A program made the position numbers and the translations under genes. Under the pieces are notes generated by a model, which had not been told where the DNA came from, made no database searches, and saw only the letters and a program-made list of their open reading frames with translations. A stretch of 4,008 nucleotides of DNA from a virus (lineage: Duplodnaviria; Heunggongvirae; Uroviricota; Caudoviricetes): IMG/VR virus record IMGVR_UViG_3300014784_000118. One strand, written 5' to 3'. This document shows positions 50 through 4,008 of the stretch, piece after piece (the stretch's first letter is position 1; each line of letters opens with the position of its first letter).

Positions 50-250
50 ATGGTTGCCGTAAATCATATACCACACCTTGTACACACACAAACGGCCTTT
101 GTGTGGCGTTTTCTGGCACTGAGTGCCGGAGAATCCCAAATCATCCACGTAACCGCCTGGACGGAACGCGAAGCGCGTAGTCGTTGCCCGTCCGGTTGTG
201 TTGCTGTATTCGCTGCAAAAATCCGCCAGGGAGAAACCTATGCACAATAA
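50..250 (+). CDS. hypothetical protein (66 aa)
   Basis: ATG at 50 preceded by a strong Shine-Dalgarno AGGAG (41-45). Same strand as the neighbouring genes, and its end overlaps the next start by 11 nt. An upstream gene appears to end at TAA 22-24. No recognisable motifs. Confidence 0.4.
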   Translation: MVAVNHIPHLVHTQTAFVWRFLALSAGESQIIHVTAWTEREARSRCPSGCVAVFAAKIRQGETYAQ

Positions 251-695: not shown

Positions 696-995
696 ATGAA
701 ACTTAAATATTCTGGCTTAACTGCCAGTGGCAAAACTCGCACTAAATTCATGCGCGGTGATATTTACCGCGACCAGTACGGCGGCACGGTAATGATTAAG
801 GGCGTGGCGGGACGGTGCGTAACTTACCGCCGTGAAGGTTACGAATATGATTGCGTGATGCCTGTTTATCAGTTCCGGCGTGATTTTTCTCTGGTACAGA
901 CCGCGCCGCATAACGTGCCCACCAGCAACGCCAGGGCACGGGCAAACATCCAGAAGCTGAAAACCATGGTTAACGGATTCAGGGGCAAGAAATGA
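696..995 (+). CDS. hypothetical protein (99 aa), translationally coupled to rep
   Basis: ATG at 696 with SD GGAGA (682-686). Its stop TGA (993-995) overlaps the rep start ATG (992-994) as ATGA. The protein is basic with G/R/Y-rich segments; no family assignment is possible by eye. Confidence 0.55.
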   Translation: MKLKYSGLTASGKTRTKFMRGDIYRDQYGGTVMIKGVAGRCVTYRREGYEYDCVMPVYQFRRDFSLVQTAPHNVPTSNARARANIQKLKTMVNGFRGKK

Positions 996-2392
996 AAAGC
1001 GCACCGAACTTAAAAAAACAGCCTTACGACAAGATGACCGAAGTCATTATTTTTGCGGGTAGTGATGCCTGGGCACATGCGAAACAGTGGCAGGAACAGG
1101 ACGGGCGACTGGCTGGCGATAATGTGCCTCCCGTTGTGCTGGCTGATGATCAACTGGATGAACTGGCAGACCTGAGAATCATCGACGAGGGGCGCTATTG
1201 TGTCCGGCTGTACAAGGCAGGCCACATCAGGCCATCAAATATTAATGCCATTGCGCACAAGCTGGCGGCGGCGGGTGTAACTGATGCGAATTATTACCCC
1301 GAAGGGATGCACAGCCATATGCGGGAGAACTGGCGCGAATACCTGGAACGGGTGCGCGGGAAAGAGCCGGCGGAAGAAAAAAACCACCAGCGAAAAACCA
1401 CGCTACCGATGAGCGTTGGATCTACCGGATACGACACGCAACTGGATTACGTGGTTAAGGGGATTATTCCGGCGGTATCGCTATGCAGCATATACGGGGC
1501 TAGCGGGTCCTATAAATCATTCCTTGCCGGATCGTGGGCGTGCCATGTTGCCACTGGTCGCCAGTGGGGAGGCCGCAGGGTTGCACATGGTGCGGTTCTC
1601 TATGTGGTTGGTGAAGGCGGTATCGGCGTTCCGCGTCGTGTAAAAGCCTGGGAGGTTGTGCACGGTGAGCAGGTGAAAAATCTGTATCTGGTAAACCGTC
1701 CCATCTTTCCGGCTGTCCCGCTTGATGTTGATGAACTGGTTATTGCTGCCAGTCAGGTGGAGAGGGAAACGGGTAAACCTGTTCGCATGATTATTCTGGA
1801 CACGCTGGCGCGCTGCTTTGGCGGCAATGATGAAAATGACTCCCGCGACATGGGGGCGTTTATCCGTGGGTGTGACGAACTGAAACGACGCACAGGGGCC
1901 ACGGTGCTGGTGGTTCACCATTCCGGCAAGGATGAGACGAAAGGCGCGCGCGGTTCCAGTGCATTTCGTGCATCACTGGATGCTGAATACCGGATACGCA
2001 GGGAGGACGCAGGAAGCGAAGCGCTGGTTATCTCATGCACCAAAATGAAGGACGCGGAGGAACTCAAAGAAGCCGCATATGACTTACGCGTGGTGGAGCT
2101 TTTTACCGACGCTGACGGGGAGTTAATCACGTCGCTGGTGGTGGTGGATAAGCCGCGCCCTCCCGTTGAACTGGAGCGCATCGAGGAGGCAGGCAACAAG
2201 ACGGAAAACCATACCGCGCTATGGGGGTGCATACGTTCACGCACACAGCACGGCGACAAGTGCACGATCCCGCTGTTACGTGACGATATGAAAAAGCTGG
2301 GGTATGACACAAAACACCTTAAACGATGGTTAGCCAAACTGGAAAAAGACGACGTGATCTACATTGACGGTGATGATGTAGGACCACTGTAA
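992..2392 (+). CDS. replication initiator / RepA-like AAA-type (RecA-fold) ATPase-helicase, 466 aa
   Basis: Walker A GASGSYKS at nt 1496-1519 (aa 169-176). Walker B hydrophobic run plus Asp (RMIILDT, D270 at nt 1799-1801). HHSGK motif (aa 309-313), typical of RepA/DnaB-like AAA_25 helicases. The C-terminal about 60 aa is basic and helical, consistent with a winged-helix DNA-binding domain. An iteron array lies immediately 3' of the stop codon. The N-terminal about 140 aa has no motif I can recognise. Confidence 0.8.
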   Translation: MKSAPNLKKQPYDKMTEVIIFAGSDAWAHAKQWQEQDGRLAGDNVPPVVLADDQLDELADLRIIDEGRYCVRLYKAGHIRPSNINAIAHKLAAAGVTDANYYPEGMHSHMRENWREYLERVRGKEPAEEKNHQRKTTLPMSVGSTGYDTQLDYVVKGIIPAVSLCSIYGASGSYKSFLAGSWACHVATGRQWGGRRVAHGAVLYVVGEGGIGVPRRVKAWEVVHGEQVKNLYLVNRPIFPAVPLDVDELVIAASQVERETGKPVRMIILDTLARCFGGNDENDSRDMGAFIRGCDELKRRTGATVLVVHHSGKDETKGARGSSAFRASLDAEYRIRREDAGSEALVISCTKMKDAEELKEAAYDLRVVELFTDADGELITSLVVVDKPRPPVELERIEEAGNKTENHTALWGCIRSRTQHGDKCTIPLLRDDMKKLGYDTKHLKRWLAKLEKDDVIYIDGDDVGPL

Positions 2393-2591
2393 AAAGTGGG
2401 CATTAAAAGTGGGAAAGGTGGGAAATTTAACGTAATTTTAACAAAATTACCCACTTTCCCACGTGTATATATCCCAAAAAGTGGGCACTAAAAAAATACC
2501 TATGAAACAAGATGATATAAATCCCAAATTTCCCACGTTGGACGAAGTGGGAAAACGTAAAAAGTGGGCGAAAAAAGTGGGTAGAGGTGGG
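2393..2591. repeat. iteron array / putative origin of replication (ori)
   Basis: Direct repeats with an (A)nAGTGGG or AGGTGGG core: GTGGG at 2396-2400, 2409-2413, 2418-2422, 2481-2485, 2547-2551, 2564-2568, 2577-2581, 2587-2591. Inverted copies with a CCCAC core at 2450-2457, 2455-2463 and 2529-2537. AT-rich spacer 2423-2449 (aaatttaacgtaattttaacaaaatta), a possible unwinding element. An ATCCCAAA 8-mer is repeated at 2471-2478 and 2521-2528. The position right after rep matches the usual ori placement in PICIs and iteron plasmids. Confidence 0.7.
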
Positions 2592-2594
2592 CAA

Positions 2595-2846
2595 ATGACT
2601 CAAAAACACAGAGACAGAACAGAGCCAAAATATAAAGCGTTAGACATGACAGAGCACGCCTTAAAGGTGGCAATCAGAACGATAGACCGCCACGCGGGGG
2701 AAGGATACGCGAAGGAACATCCCGACCTGATAAGCGCATTCATGACCACGACGGCGGCAAATTTTGCCACGCTGACAGAGCGGGAGATTGCGGAAGCTGA
2801 ACAGGTGACAACCATCAACGTTAAAAACGTAGAGGTGGAATCATGA
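2595..2846 (+). CDS. hypothetical protein (83 aa)
   Basis: ATG at 2595 preceded by GAGGTGGG (2584-2591), which serves as SD and is also the last iteron copy. The stop TGA 2844-2846 overlaps the ssb start ATG 2843 (ATGA coupling). The in-frame upstream start at 2463 would translate the iterons and is rejected. Confidence 0.55.
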   Translation: MTQKHRDRTEPKYKALDMTEHALKVAIRTIDRHAGEGYAKEHPDLISAFMTTTAANFATLTEREIAEAEQVTTINVKNVEVES

Positions 2847-3265
2847 CAGCACAGATAGCGGCTTACGGGCGGCTGGTGGCTGACCCACAGTTAAAGACCA
2901 CCAGCAAGGGCACACAAATGACGATGGCGAGTATGGCTGTCCCCCTGCCGTGCAGCCAGGCAGATGACGGAACGGCTACGATGTGGTTATCCGTCCTGGC
3001 GTTTGGCAGACAGGCCGACGCACTGGCAAAACACCGCAAAGGCGAGCTGGTGAGCGTGGCGGGTAACATGCAGGTAAGCCAGTGGACAGGCCAGAACGGC
3101 GAAACGCGGCAGGGCTGGCAGGTTATCGCAGACAGCGTAATCAGTGCGAGAACGGCGCGACCGGGCGGCAAAAAAGGCCAGCAGGGGCAGGCTACTGACG
3201 CACTGAACAGGGCAAAACAACAGGCGGGGAATGATGATCCGTACGGGGATAACATACCGTTTTAA
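2843..3265 (+). CDS. ssb: single-stranded DNA-binding protein (SSB-like, OB-fold), 140 aa
   Basis: The N-terminal about 105 aa follows the SSB OB-fold pattern: (I/V)xxxGRLxxDPxL near the N-terminus, then WLSVLAFGRQAD...KGELVSVAGNMQVSQWTGQNGETRQGWQVIADSV, paralleling E. coli SSB WHRVVLFGKLAE...KGSQVYIEGQLRTRKW. A Gly/Gln-rich linker follows, and the C-terminal tip ...DDPYGDNIPF resembles the canonical SSB DDDIPF tail. SD GAGGTGG lies upstream. Confidence 0.8.
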   Translation: MTAQIAAYGRLVADPQLKTTSKGTQMTMASMAVPLPCSQADDGTATMWLSVLAFGRQADALAKHRKGELVSVAGNMQVSQWTGQNGETRQGWQVIADSVISARTARPGGKKGQQGQATDALNRAKQQAGNDDPYGDNIPF

Positions 3266-3280
3266 GCAACGAGTGACAGA

Positions 3281-3303
3281 AGCCGGAGAAATCCGGCTTT
3301 TTT
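3281..3303 (+). terminator. rho-independent terminator after ssb
   Basis: Perfect 7-bp stem AGCCGGA (3281-3287) / TCCGGCT (3292-3298) with a GAAA tetraloop, followed by a T-run (3298-3303), 16 nt after the ssb stop codon. Confidence 0.65.
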
Positions 3304-3507
3304 GTAGGTACTCCTGGTGGGGGTGGCCTGTCCACGGGGCGGAGGGGCGCGGAAAAAGGCGCATTTTTTGATTTTTATGGCACCATCACCACCACTATAA
3401 GTTATTGATATGTTGAGAAATAAAAATTTTTAGTGTCGAATCAGGTTGTTTTTTGTTCATCACCGGAACGTTCCCGAAAACATTTACAAAAAACAGGCGC
3501 AAAAAAA

Positions 3508-3540
3508 GCGCCCCCGATTGCTGTTACCGGAGGCGCTTTT
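3508..3540. terminator. hairpin with flanking A/T runs (possible bidirectional terminator or regulatory hairpin)
   Basis: Stem GCGCCCCC (3508-3515) / GGAGGCGC (3529-3536), 7 of 8 pairs, with a 13-nt loop. It is followed by TTTT on the + strand and preceded by A7 (3501-3507), which gives T7 on the - strand. No minus-strand gene is evident downstream to use it. Confidence 0.3.
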
Positions 3541-3638
3541 ACACGACAAAGGAGTTTTTATCGCCAGGATGACGAGTCTTAATACTGCTTCAATGGCAAA
3601 AATGCGTCAATAACTTTGCCTCTCTGAGAATAATCAGA

Positions 3639-3657
3639 AAAATCATAATCTGATTTT
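3639..3657. promoter_or_regulatory. operator-like inverted repeat upstream of the 3732 gene
   Basis: AAAATCA (3639-3645) - N5 - TGATTTT (3651-3657). It overlaps a -10-like CATAAT (3644-3649) and sits about 75 bp upstream of the ATG at 3732. Confidence 0.25.
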
Positions 3658-3731
3658 CAGGTAGAAAATGATTTATCTATTACTTTTATCGATCAATAAT
3701 GATGCCCGTTAATCAAAACGGAGGCGGATTT

Positions 3732-3926
3732 ATGCCAGAGAACAACACCAGAAAGCCGGATAAAAGTGCCACGGTACACATAGACGCCGGAACTATGGAG
3801 AAGATCGAACGCTATCAGCAGTTCATCAAAGATAATCACCCGGGTATGCCAGTACCCACGAAAGGACAAATCACACGCAGCGCGGTTGAATACTGGTACA
3901 GGGCAACGTTAGGGGTCTGGCTATGA
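3732..3926 (+). CDS. hypothetical small protein (64 aa), possible ribbon-helix-helix DNA-binding protein
   Basis: ATG at 3732 with a strong SD GGAGG (3720-3724, 7-nt spacing). The ATG at 3699 on the ORF track lacks an RBS. The pattern short beta-strand (ATVHID), helix (GTMEKIERYQQFIKDN), loop, helix (ITRSAVEYWYRA) suggests an RHH fold. Its stop overlaps the next start (ATGA at 3923-3926). Confidence 0.5.
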   Translation: MPENNTRKPDKSATVHIDAGTMEKIERYQQFIKDNHPGMPVPTKGQITRSAVEYWYRATLGVWL

Positions 3927-4008
3927 AAACATGGTTTTCCATTAAGGCTATGGCAGATGTTGTCTATGTGCGCATTTATGACGAGATCGGCGGGTACGGT
4001 GTAAAAGC
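3923..4008 (+). CDS. partial CDS (N-terminus only, runs off the window end); possible ClpP/S14-family prohead (head maturation) protease
   Basis: ATG at 3923 with SD AGGGG (3911-3915), translationally coupled to the upstream gene. The N-terminus MKTWFSIKAMADVVYVRIYDEIGGYGV contains the (I/L)YDEIG...GV motif characteristic of the start of ClpP-like phage prohead proteases. Only 28 codons are visible, so the family call is tentative. Confidence 0.4.
   Translation, partial: MKTWFSIKAMADVVYVRIYDEIGGYGVK

What the first reader, a model, noticed from the sequence alone, without database searches (positions are those of the whole stretch)
992..2392. Rep protein with a RepA/AAA_25-type helicase core but an unrecognisable N-terminal domain and no obvious primase domain
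The Walker A (GASGSYKS), Walker B (MIILDT) and HHSGK motifs place the core in the RecA-fold RepA/DnaB-like helicase group. Satellite and PICI replication proteins are commonly primase-helicase fusions, but the 140-aa N-terminal region here shows no primase motifs I can recognise by eye. This suggests either reliance on host DnaG or another partner (perhaps the coupled 99-aa upstream gene), or a novel N-terminal domain. The C-terminal basic helical segment is the likely iteron-binding domain.
Basis: partly seen in the sequence, partly recalled or inferred. Interest (0 to 1): 0.5.

Follow-up and report, generated by a model that had tools for sequence, protein, structure and literature searches.

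The report
Satellite replication helicase without a primase
This gene encodes the replication starter of an E. coli phage satellite: a ring-helicase motor whose tail reads short DNA repeats next to the gene and whose head is an uncharacterised, apparently non-enzymatic module shared with three unrelated helicase types, so it is an interesting variant of a known kind, not a new system.

Summary
The ORF (992-2392, 466 aa) is real and its motifs are as described. It is the Rep protein of a PICI-type E. coli phage satellite, a large family that NCBI already names 'helicase RepA family protein'.

It has three parts:
- Core, residues ~148-392: AAA_25/RepA RecA-fold helicase (Pfam E 4.9e-44).
- N-terminal domain, residues 1-128: no Pfam match, but not an orphan. 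It is a confidently folded alpha/beta module of a small family (124 clusters in 1.84 billion proteins). It always sits at the N-terminus of AAA_25, D5-type SF3, DUF927 or VapE helicases. In these loci it always follows a DUF4222 gene.

The parts
696..995 (+). DUF4222 gene (99 aa), translationally coupled to rep through an ATGA overlap at 992-995
   Evidence: Pfam PF13973 E 3.3e-23. Directly upstream of rep in 73/73 loci whose Rep has this N-terminal module and in 0/69 loci with other N-termini. Also present upstream of the D5-type Reps in L002, L003 and EcCICFT073.
992..2392 (+). rep: 466-aa initiator-helicase (RefSeq name 'helicase RepA family protein')
   Evidence: ORF list; phrog_2850 matched full length; RefSeq annotation of homologues.
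992..1375 (+). N-terminal module, residues 1-128: compact beta-alpha-beta domain. Conserved AP (residues 4-5), h-h-h-[A/V/I]-G at the end of beta1, G77, and an E-N-W-x-x-Y-L-x-R-x-R helix at 112-122. No catalytic signature.
1376..1432 (+). Linker, residues 129-147, predicted disordered
   Evidence: pLDDT below 50 for residues 129-136. The recombination junction lies here: the window and L001 Reps are about 45% identical before residue ~133 and about 99% identical after it.
1433..2167 (+). RecA-fold RepA/AAA_25 helicase core, residues ~148-392. Walker A at nt 1496-1519 (K175), Walker B at 1787-1804, HHSGK at 1916-1930.
   Evidence: Pfam PF13481 E 4.9e-44; PDB 1g8y RepA alignment. The C-terminal limit is inferred from the length of RSF1010 RepA and from the start of the modelled C-terminal domain.
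2204..2389 (+). C-terminal winged-helix DNA-binding domain, residues 405-466. Recognition helix H3 = residues 443-452 (nt 2318-2347). Specificity residue His442 = codon 2315-2317.
2393..2594 (.). Origin of replication: 11 GTGGG iterons (consensus AAAGTGGG). Plus strand at 2396, 2409, 2418, 2481, 2547, 2564, 2577, 2587; minus strand at 2450, 2458, 2532. They flank AT-rich stretches.
   Evidence: 11 of the window's 20 GTGGG sites lie in these 200 bp; 20 observed against 8.8 expected, reached by 0/200 shuffles. Repeat families. Same layout as published E. coli PICI and SaPI origins (PMC6092414, PMC9371898). No DnaA box here.
2595..2846 (+). 83-aa conserved ORF of unknown function (phrog_1231). 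Its stop overlaps the ssb start (ATGA).
   Evidence: phrog_1231 E 9.2e-50 over residues 45-127 of the longer GTG-started ORF. Annotated as hypothetical in L001. Present in 71/73 loci carrying the N-terminal module.
2843..3265 (+). Satellite-encoded SSB (140 aa) ending in ...DDPYGDNIPF
   Evidence: Pfam SSB E 3.7e-16; TIGR00621 above its cut-off. The C-terminal IPF tip is read from the translation.

Best explanation
The ORF encodes the replication initiator-helicase of a PICI-type phage satellite of E. coli. It works like the self-loading Rep proteins of SaPIs, but its motor is a RecA-fold RepA/AAA_25 (SF4-like) helicase instead of an SF3 or MCM AAA+ motor. The C-terminal winged helix binds the AAAGTGGG iterons that lie just downstream of the gene on both sides of AT-rich DNA, and His442 at the start of the recognition helix reads the fourth base. 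Binding positions the helicase to melt the AT-rich centre and load itself (inferred). The satellite's own SSB then coats the unwound DNA (inferred). The protein has no primase. Its N-terminal 128 residues form a portable, non-catalytic alpha/beta module that occupies the position where relatives in other genera carry a zinc-ribbon plus Toprim primase. Primers must therefore come in trans, most likely from host DnaG or the host primosome (inferred). The module may be an adaptor or a Twinkle-like accessory domain; its function is not established.
For: Shown here.
- Core: AAA_25 E 4.9e-44 and a RepA (1g8y) match.
- Element context: int, alpA, icd-like, DUF4222, rep, ori, small ORF, ssb, prohead protease/capsid fusion, in a ~10 kb island inserted in tqsA. 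EcCICFT073 has the same backbone.
- Origin: 11 GTGGG iterons in the 200 bp after the stop codon.
- Specificity: on 128 non-redundant loci, His442 goes with GTGGG in 40/41 and Asn442 with GTGAG in 48/52, with none crossed, across five N-terminus types. Position 442 is the only one of 77 C-terminal positions that partitions iteron class. The minimal pair differs only by H442N and G452R. The window and L001 Reps have ~99% identical cores but differ in the recognition helix and in the iteron.
- No primase: no primase domain in Pfam or NCBIfam. hhalign against Zn-Toprim gives 0.3% probability. The catalytic Glu and DxD are absent in all 34 divergent family members. No primase-sized unassigned gene exists in the element.
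- Relatives: Serratia and Xenorhabdus homologues are Zn_Ribbon_Prim + Toprim_3 + AAA_25.

From the literature.
- SaPI Reps are self-loading initiator-helicases whose C-terminal WH reads 5-6 nt iterons just downstream of rep (PMC9371898).
- E. coli PICI origins have two iteron sets flanking an AT-rich region, and EcCICFT073 rep-ori replicates a plasmid in DH5alpha without a helper (PMC6092414). That Rep carries the same N-terminal module and no primase domain.
Confidence: 0.8

Rival explanations
1. The N-terminal module is a degenerate Toprim left over from an ancestral primase-helicase fusion. It now serves as a non-catalytic accessory domain, for ssDNA binding or support of the helicase ring, as the inactive primase-like domain of metazoan Twinkle does.
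Confidence: 0.4
2. The N-terminal module is an adaptor that docks a trans-acting partner onto whichever helicase motor it is fused to. The partner could be host DnaG or another replisome component, or the satellite's own DUF4222 protein. In this way the module would replace a cis primase.
For: The module is portable across four unrelated motor families, which argues for a motor-independent role. It sits where a primase domain is found in relatives. DUF4222 is adjacent and translationally coupled in 73/73 loci carrying the module, plus L002, L003 and EcCICFT073, and in 0/69 other loci. A Rep carrying the module, plus its ori, replicates in E. coli without a helper (PMC6092414).
Against: There is no direct interaction evidence. 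DUF4222 and N-terminal alleles show no covariation (Spearman 0.17) and all class combinations occur. The co-occurrence is confounded by the shared E. coli satellite backbone, since the 83-aa ORF and ssb show the same pattern. DUF4222 also occurs in a lambdoid prophage without such a Rep. The published construct was described as rep plus ori, which suggests DUF4222 is dispensable there.
Confidence: 0.3
3. The N-terminal module is itself a new minimal primase with an unconventional active site.
For: NCBI and PHROGs label many carriers 'DNA primase'. The module sits where a primase is expected. No other primase is encoded in the element.
Against: Those names trace to the D5/P4-type helicase part, not to this module. 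At 128 aa with no zinc-binding motif, it keeps only AP, G, A, P, L, G, A and R at 85% or more across the family, and no acidic residue at the Toprim catalytic positions. Rep homologues with no N-terminal domain at all, about 360-380 aa, also exist without a nearby primase.
Confidence: 0.04
4. The protein is not a replicative helicase. It would be a RecA/KaiC-like ATPase acting only as an origin-binding regulator, with host DnaB doing the unwinding.
For: AAA_25 is a broad family. NCBIfam gives only sub-threshold RadA hits. The match to RepA of RSF1010 is weak at the sequence level (E 0.0067).
Against: The Walker A, Walker B and HHSGK motifs align with RepA helicase motifs. Homologues are fused to primase domains exactly as in T7 gp4-type primase-helicases. 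The slot is interchangeable with bona fide SF3 replicative helicases. PHROGs relatives are annotated as helicase-primases.
Confidence: 0.05

Closest known systems
SaPI Rep initiator-helicases (Rep1, Rep2, PriRep5 of Staphylococcus aureus pathogenicity islands; PMC9371898)
   Same: The satellite context is the same. Rep is both initiator and helicase. A C-terminal winged helix reads short iterons placed just downstream of rep on both sides of an AT-rich region. The N-terminal domain has no known function. The primase may be fused, separate or absent.
   Different: SaPI Reps use SF3 or MCM-type AAA+ motors, whereas this protein has a RecA-fold AAA_25/RepA motor. SaPIs encode a Pri primase, upstream or fused, and this element encodes none. 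There is no sequence similarity.
EcCICFT073 Pri-Rep and the other E. coli PICI Rep 'allelic variants' (Fillol-Salom et al. 2018, PMC6092414)
   Same: The backbone is the same (icd-like, DUF4222, rep, ori, small ORF, ssb). The N-terminal module is the same (62% identity). The origin layout is the same, and the protein occupies the same slot in the element.
   Different: In EcCICFT073 the motor and DNA-binding domain are D5_N + DUF5906 (SF3) + Pox_D5, and the iterons are GGTAGAYA-type. Only that variant has been tested experimentally.
RepA helicase of IncQ plasmid RSF1010 (PDB 1g8y)
   Same: Homologous RecA-fold hexameric helicase core with matching Walker A, Walker B and H3 motifs; same Pfam family.
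   Different: RSF1010 RepA is the core only (279 aa). Origin recognition (RepC) and priming (RepB') are separate proteins. Here origin recognition is fused as a C-terminal WH, an extra N-terminal module is present, and no primase is encoded.
T7 gp4-type and P4-alpha-type primase-helicases, and the Zn_Ribbon_Prim + Toprim_3 + AAA_25 homologues in Serratia, Xenorhabdus, Pectobacterium and Morganella
   Same: The helicase core and winged-helix C-terminal domain are orthologous (52-72% identity), with the same iteron logic. An N-terminal domain precedes the motor.
   Different: Those proteins carry a bona fide zinc ribbon and a Toprim with the EGYAT and DxD motifs. The window protein has a 128-aa module with neither.
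Metazoan Twinkle mitochondrial helicase (PMC2241861)
   Different: The Twinkle N-terminal domain is clearly homologous in sequence to the gp4 primase, whereas here no sequence relationship is detectable. Twinkle has no iteron-reading WH.

Membership tests
RepA/AAA_25 RecA-fold hexameric helicases (Pfam PF13481; RSF1010 RepA) | Significant match to the family profile above the curated threshold | tested here: met
   PF13481 E 4.9e-44, 150.7 bits against a cut-off of 27, residues 148-315.
RepA/AAA_25 RecA-fold hexameric helicases (Pfam PF13481; RSF1010 RepA) | Walker A GxxGxxK[ST], Walker B hhhhD, and the H3 'HH..K' motif aligned with RepA of RSF1010 | tested here: met
   GASGSYKS 169-176, MIILDT 266-271 and HHSGK 309-313 align with RepA 1g8y residues 19-190.
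RepA/AAA_25 RecA-fold hexameric helicases (Pfam PF13481; RSF1010 RepA) | Hexamer formation and ATP-dependent 5'-3' DNA unwinding | not testable with these tools
   Needs purified protein. Inferred from homology only.
PICI/SaPI-type self-loading Rep initiator-helicases | Encoded in a phage-satellite replication module (int, alpA ... rep, ori) with the ori immediately 3' of rep | tested here: met
   Element anatomy in L001 and EcCICFT073. Iterons start 4 nt after the stop codon.
PICI/SaPI-type self-loading Rep initiator-helicases | Origin made of two or more sets of short iterons, in both orientations, flanking AT-rich DNA | tested here: met
   8 plus-strand and 3 minus-strand GTGGG in 2396-2591 around AT-rich stretches. 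Matches the description in PMC6092414 and PMC9371898.
PICI/SaPI-type self-loading Rep initiator-helicases | C-terminal winged-helix domain that specifies the cognate iteron | tested here: met
   WH fold. Residue 442 covaries with iteron base 4: 40/41 His-GTGGG and 48/52 Asn-GTGAG.
PICI/SaPI-type self-loading Rep initiator-helicases | SF3 or MCM-type AAA+ motor, as in the characterised SaPI Reps | tested here: not met
   The motor is RecA-fold AAA_25. It therefore works like a SaPI Rep but is not homologous to one.
PICI/SaPI-type self-loading Rep initiator-helicases | Rep plus ori sufficient for autonomous replication; loader-independent loading | not testable with these tools
   Shown only for the D5-type EcCICFT073 Rep (PMC6092414). 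Not tested for this RepA-type Rep.
DnaG-type (Toprim) primase domain | Match to the Toprim or Zn_Ribbon_Prim profiles | tested here: not met
   No Pfam or NCBIfam hit for residues 1-150. hhalign against the Zn-Toprim region of homologues gives 0.3% probability.
DnaG-type (Toprim) primase domain | Conserved Glu at the end of beta1 and DxD after beta3 (metal-binding catalytic residues) | tested here: not met
   The end of beta1 is h-h-h-[A/V/I]-G and the stretch after beta3 is h-x-h-x-x-[A/F/C]-G, with no acidic residue, in all 35 aligned sequences.
DnaG-type (Toprim) primase domain | Toprim fold | tested here: inconclusive
DnaG-type (Toprim) primase domain | Zinc-binding domain (CxxC...CxxC) for template recognition | tested here: not met
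   No Cys/His cluster in residues 1-147. Homologues that do have a primase show HGPCPACG.
Winged-helix DNA-binding domains | H1-beta-H2-H3-beta-hairpin topology with strong structural matches to solved WH domains | tested here: met

The most novel reading that the evidence does not exclude
The N-terminal 128 residues define a portable, catalytically dead, possibly Toprim-derived adaptor domain. E. coli phage satellites would graft it onto any of four unrelated helicase motors (RepA/AAA_25, D5-type SF3, DUF927, VapE) in place of a primase domain. Its job would be to capture the host primase or replisome, possibly together with the always-adjacent DUF4222 protein. This would explain how 'Pri-Rep' proteins with no primase active site support helper-independent replication.
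Probability: 0.25. Interest if true: 0.65.

Novelty: new variant of a known kind. Interest (0 to 1): 0.42.

Why it matters
PICI and cfPICI satellites are present in about a third of complete E. coli genomes and move virulence and defence genes, and their replication module is what lets them outgrow the helper phage. Three points follow from this analysis.

1. The 'primase' in the annotation of E. coli PICI Pri-Rep proteins is nominal. None of the variants that carry this N-terminal module has a recognisable primase active site, so how these replicons are primed is an open and directly testable question.

2. The N-terminal module is a small, well-folded domain family with no Pfam entry. It reassorts among four helicase classes, which makes it a clean example of domain-level modular exchange and a candidate host-factor adaptor.

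3. The rule that His442 goes with G and Asn442 with A is a one-residue, one-base specificity switch for a replication origin. It explains how closely related satellites keep incompatible origins, and it could be used to engineer orthogonal replicons.

Tried and rejected
- Megablast of the window against 50,697 phage records: no match. The element is a chromosomal satellite, not a catalogued phage.
- N-terminal module as a sequence-detectable remnant of the zinc-ribbon/Toprim primase of homologues: hhalign probability 0.3% with both a narrow and a wide alignment. Rejected at the sequence level.
- Profile of the N-terminal module against PDB sequences: only noise, Cas2 at E 0.16.
- afdb50 fold library: not available.
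- N-terminal module as the iteron reader: rejected. The same module sits in front of Reps whose iterons are GTGGG, GTGAG, GGTAGAYA or GGTGAACAG.
- Co-adaptation between DUF4222 and N-terminal alleles: none (Spearman 0.17).
- DnaA boxes in the origin: none in 2393-2594, and no enrichment in the window.
- My guess that the 292-aa ORF upstream of the short Reps (L046) was a split primase: it is an integrase.
- First guess at the EcCICFT073 location hit a lambdoid prophage; the second was correct.
- The sigma-70 promoter scan gave fewer hits than shuffled sequence and none relevant to rep.
Full report
**Observation.** The window contains an ATG-started ORF at 992-2392 on the plus strand that encodes 466 aa. 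Pfam assigns residues 148-315 to AAA_25 (PF13481) with E 4.9e-44. Residues 1-150 and 350-466, scanned on their own, match nothing in Pfam or NCBIfam. phmmer against PDB sequences finds only RepA of plasmid RSF1010 (1g8y), aligned over residues 150-321 with the ATPase motifs in register. The rep start codon overlaps the stop of the upstream 99-aa gene (ATGA at 992-995), and that gene is a DUF4222 protein. One correction: PHROGs matches the whole protein end to end (phrog_2850, function unknown), and the N-terminal 130 aa match part of a long profile labelled 'DNA primase' (phrog_864).

**Context.** The DNA has no near match among 50,697 phage records. Parts of it occur in 1,836 of 5,426 complete E. 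coli genomes, almost always on the chromosome. In the best full-length relative, the module sits in a roughly 10 kb island inserted in tqsA. The gene order is integrase, AlpA-like regulator, small ORFs, Icd-like, two small ORFs, DUF4222, 'helicase RepA family protein', a 200-bp gap, an 83-aa ORF, SSB, and a prohead protease/major capsid fusion. This is the layout of E. coli PICI and cfPICI phage satellites. The prototype EcCICFT073 has the same backbone. The Rep family is large and already named by NCBI, with hundreds of clusters at 59-97% identity in Escherichia, Shigella, Salmonella and Enterobacter.

**Origin.** The 200 bp between the rep stop and the next gene hold 11 of the window's 20 GTGGG pentamers, 8 on the plus strand and 3 on the minus strand, with consensus AAAGTGGG. 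They are arranged around AT-rich stretches. The window total of 20 compares with 8.8 expected and is reached by none of 200 shuffles. No DnaA box is present. This matches the origin architecture published for E. coli PICIs and SaPIs (PMC6092414, PMC9371898).

**C-terminal domain.** Sister elements gave a natural experiment. The Rep of L001 has a core about 99% identical to the window's over residues 133-419. It differs at seven C-terminal positions, four of them clustered in DTKHLKRW versus DVKNMRRW, and its iterons are GTGAG instead of GTGGG. I then fetched 160 loci and extracted each Rep and its downstream 260 bp.
- On 128 non-redundant loci, the residue four positions before the invariant RW predicts the iteron. 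His goes with GTGGG in 40 of 41 loci and Asn with GTGAG in 48 of 52, with no crossed case. SKKF helices go with GTGGGGG and VRKSF helices with GTGCGG.
- The rule holds whichever N-terminus the protein carries.
- Among 24 distinct 77-aa C-terminal alleles, position 442 is the only position that perfectly partitions iteron class, and it differs in all 120 cross-class pairs.
- The closest pair differs only by H442N and G452R. At least four independent His/Asn switches occur on different helix backgrounds.
- AlphaFold models residues 390-466 with pLDDT 86.4 as H1-beta-H2-H3-hairpin, and residue 442 sits immediately before H3.

**N-terminal domain: not an orphan.** A database search with residues 1-145 returned about 100 E. 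coli and Shigella proteins, 45-100% identical over the module, many labelled 'DNA primase'. Alignment shows that the same 125 aa, with invariant TEVIIFAGSDAWAHAK, head proteins that then diverge completely. In sister satellites the slot after DUF4222 is filled by 584-605-aa proteins with this module followed by D5_N, DUF5906 (an SF3 helicase) and Pox_D5. An exhaustive HMM search of 1.84 billion representative proteins finds only 124 clusters, and the module is always at residues 1-130. Full-length carriers are DUF927, D5_N/DUF5906, VapE-like or AAA_25 proteins. The 'primase' names therefore come from the P4/D5-type helicase part, not from this module. EcCICFT073 Pri-Rep, the one experimentally tested E. 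coli PICI Rep, begins with the same module (62% identity, E 3e-51) and has no recognised primase catalytic domain.

**N-terminal domain: is it a primase remnant?** Homologues of the core plus C-terminal domain in Xenorhabdus, Serratia, Pectobacterium, Morganella, Pantoea and Erwinia (52-72% identity) are 670-703 aa long. They carry Zn_Ribbon_Prim and Toprim_3 domains in front of AAA_25, with the HGPCPACG and AEGYATG motifs. A real primase thus occupies this position in relatives. Other relatives carry a different ~110-aa N-terminus (SDALF type) or none at all.
- Profile-profile comparison of the E. coli module with the Zn-Toprim region gives 0.3% probability with both a narrow and a wide alignment.
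- AlphaFold models the module confidently (pLDDT 88.6, pTM 0.83) as four beta-alpha units.
- Foldseek against the PDB finds nothing significant and no primases. A profile search of PDB sequences also finds nothing.
- In an alignment of 35 divergent sequences, the position of the Toprim catalytic Glu at the end of beta1 is always A, V or I followed by Gly. No acidic residue follows beta3, where DxD would be. Only AP, G23, A26, P47, L55, G77, A92 and R122 are conserved at 85% or more.

I conclude that the module is non-catalytic. Its fold may be Toprim-like, but this is a lead from one method, not an established fact.

**Link to DUF4222.** A DUF4222 gene lies directly upstream in 73 of 73 loci whose Rep carries the module and in none of 69 loci with other N-termini. 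It is also upstream of the D5-type Reps that share the module. This is confounded by the shared E. coli satellite backbone, because the 83-aa ORF and ssb show the same distribution. At the allele level there is no covariation (Spearman 0.17), and all class combinations occur. DUF4222, the N-terminal domain, the core and the C-terminal domain reassort almost independently. DUF4222 also occurs in a lambdoid prophage with no such Rep. A physical partnership is possible but not supported beyond co-occurrence.

**Mechanism.**
- Shown: a RepA-type ATPase core, a winged helix that co-varies with adjacent iterons, and no primase domain in the protein or the element.
- From the literature on analogous systems: SaPI Reps bind their iterons through a C-terminal WH, melt the AT-rich centre without ATP, and load themselves as hexamers (PMC9371898). 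The rep-ori segment of EcCICFT073 replicates a plasmid in DH5alpha without a helper (PMC6092414).
- Inferred for this protein: the same sequence of events with a RecA-fold motor, the satellite SSB coating the unwound strands, and primers supplied in trans. The SSB C-terminus ends in IPF like the host SSB tail, which in E. coli is a docking site for replisome proteins (general knowledge). Host DnaG or the host primosome is the most economical primer source. Transcription through the origin is an alternative.
- The role of the N-terminal module is open. Its portability across four motor families argues for a motor-independent function such as docking a common partner. The Twinkle precedent (PMC2241861) argues for an accessory role in ssDNA binding.

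**Comparison and novelty.** The protein works like a SaPI/PICI self-loading Rep, but its motor belongs to the RSF1010 RepA family, so it is not homologous to the characterised SaPI Reps. Unlike RSF1010, origin recognition is fused to the helicase and no primase is encoded. The family, the satellite context and the origin layout are already known. What appears undescribed in the literature I could search is threefold: the N-terminal module as a discrete domain exchanged among four helicase classes, the absence of any primase active site in these 'Pri-Rep' proteins, and the rule linking residue 442 to the iteron base. I rate this a new variant of a known kind, of moderate interest.

Noticed in passing
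window 2843-3265: The satellite encodes its own SSB (140 aa). Its C-terminus (...DDPYGDNIPF) keeps the IPF tip typical of the host SSB tail. Its ATG overlaps the stop of the upstream 83-aa ORF (ATGA at 2843-2846), the same coupling as between DUF4222 and rep.
   Followed up: partly
P0014, P0015, P0078 (alignment): Chimeric proteins of 172-233 aa in which roughly the first 80 residues of the Rep N-terminal module are fused in frame to the C-terminal part of the SSB. They look like deletion derivatives that have lost the helicase, the ori and the 83-aa ORF.
   Followed up: no
L126, 230 bp downstream of rep: Hybrid origin. The left and central iterons are GTGAG (matching Asn442), but the rightmost repeats are GTGGGG, as if a recombination junction lay inside the origin.
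   Followed up: no
L003:5540-5790: The D5-type Rep of this 10.8-kb circular element has GGTGAACAG/CTGTTCACC iterons. From memory, these resemble the TGTTCACC type I iterons bound by the phage P4 alpha protein.
   Followed up: no
L036, L031, L034 and others (Kosakonia, Kluyvera, Pantoea, Enterobacter soli), Rep residues 1-~115: A second uncharacterised N-terminal module (…SDALF[T/A]C.Y.WAHG…) sits on the same helicase core. It has no Pfam match and no DUF4222 upstream.
   Followed up: partly
L164:5192-5431 (E. coli CFT073 lambdoid prophage): A DUF4222 gene lies next to the excisionase in the early-left region of a lambdoid prophage, with no Rep of this kind nearby. DUF4222 is therefore not exclusive to satellites.
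   Followed up: no
L149, L155, L156, L158: E. coli-type rep genes whose longest ATG-started ORF begins only at the linker or core (327-342 aa), although tblastn matched from residue 1. They are probably frameshifted or truncated N-terminal modules.
   Followed up: no
window 3281-3303 and 3305-3698: A clean stem-loop plus T-run (AGCCGGA-GAAA-TCCGGCT-TTTTT) lies right after ssb, followed by a ~400-bp AT-rich non-coding stretch with a minus-strand terminator-like hairpin at 3513-3495. The function of this spacer before the packaging genes is unknown.
   Followed up: no
window 50-250, 240-470, 460-690, 3699-3926, 3923-4008: Flanking genes: an Icd-like ORF (by position in L001), two small overlapping ORFs (phrog_5146, phrog_2196), a 75-aa ORF (phrog_4934), and the start of the prohead protease/capsid fusion gene.
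   Followed up: partly
L046:2454-3332 and 3486-4628 (Enterobacteriaceae bacterium RIT693; same in Cedecea and Tatumella): A 380-aa Rep with no N-terminal domain lies directly after an integrase gene, with GTGGGGG iterons downstream. This is a minimal int-rep-ori arrangement without primase, DUF4222 or ssb.
   Followed up: partly
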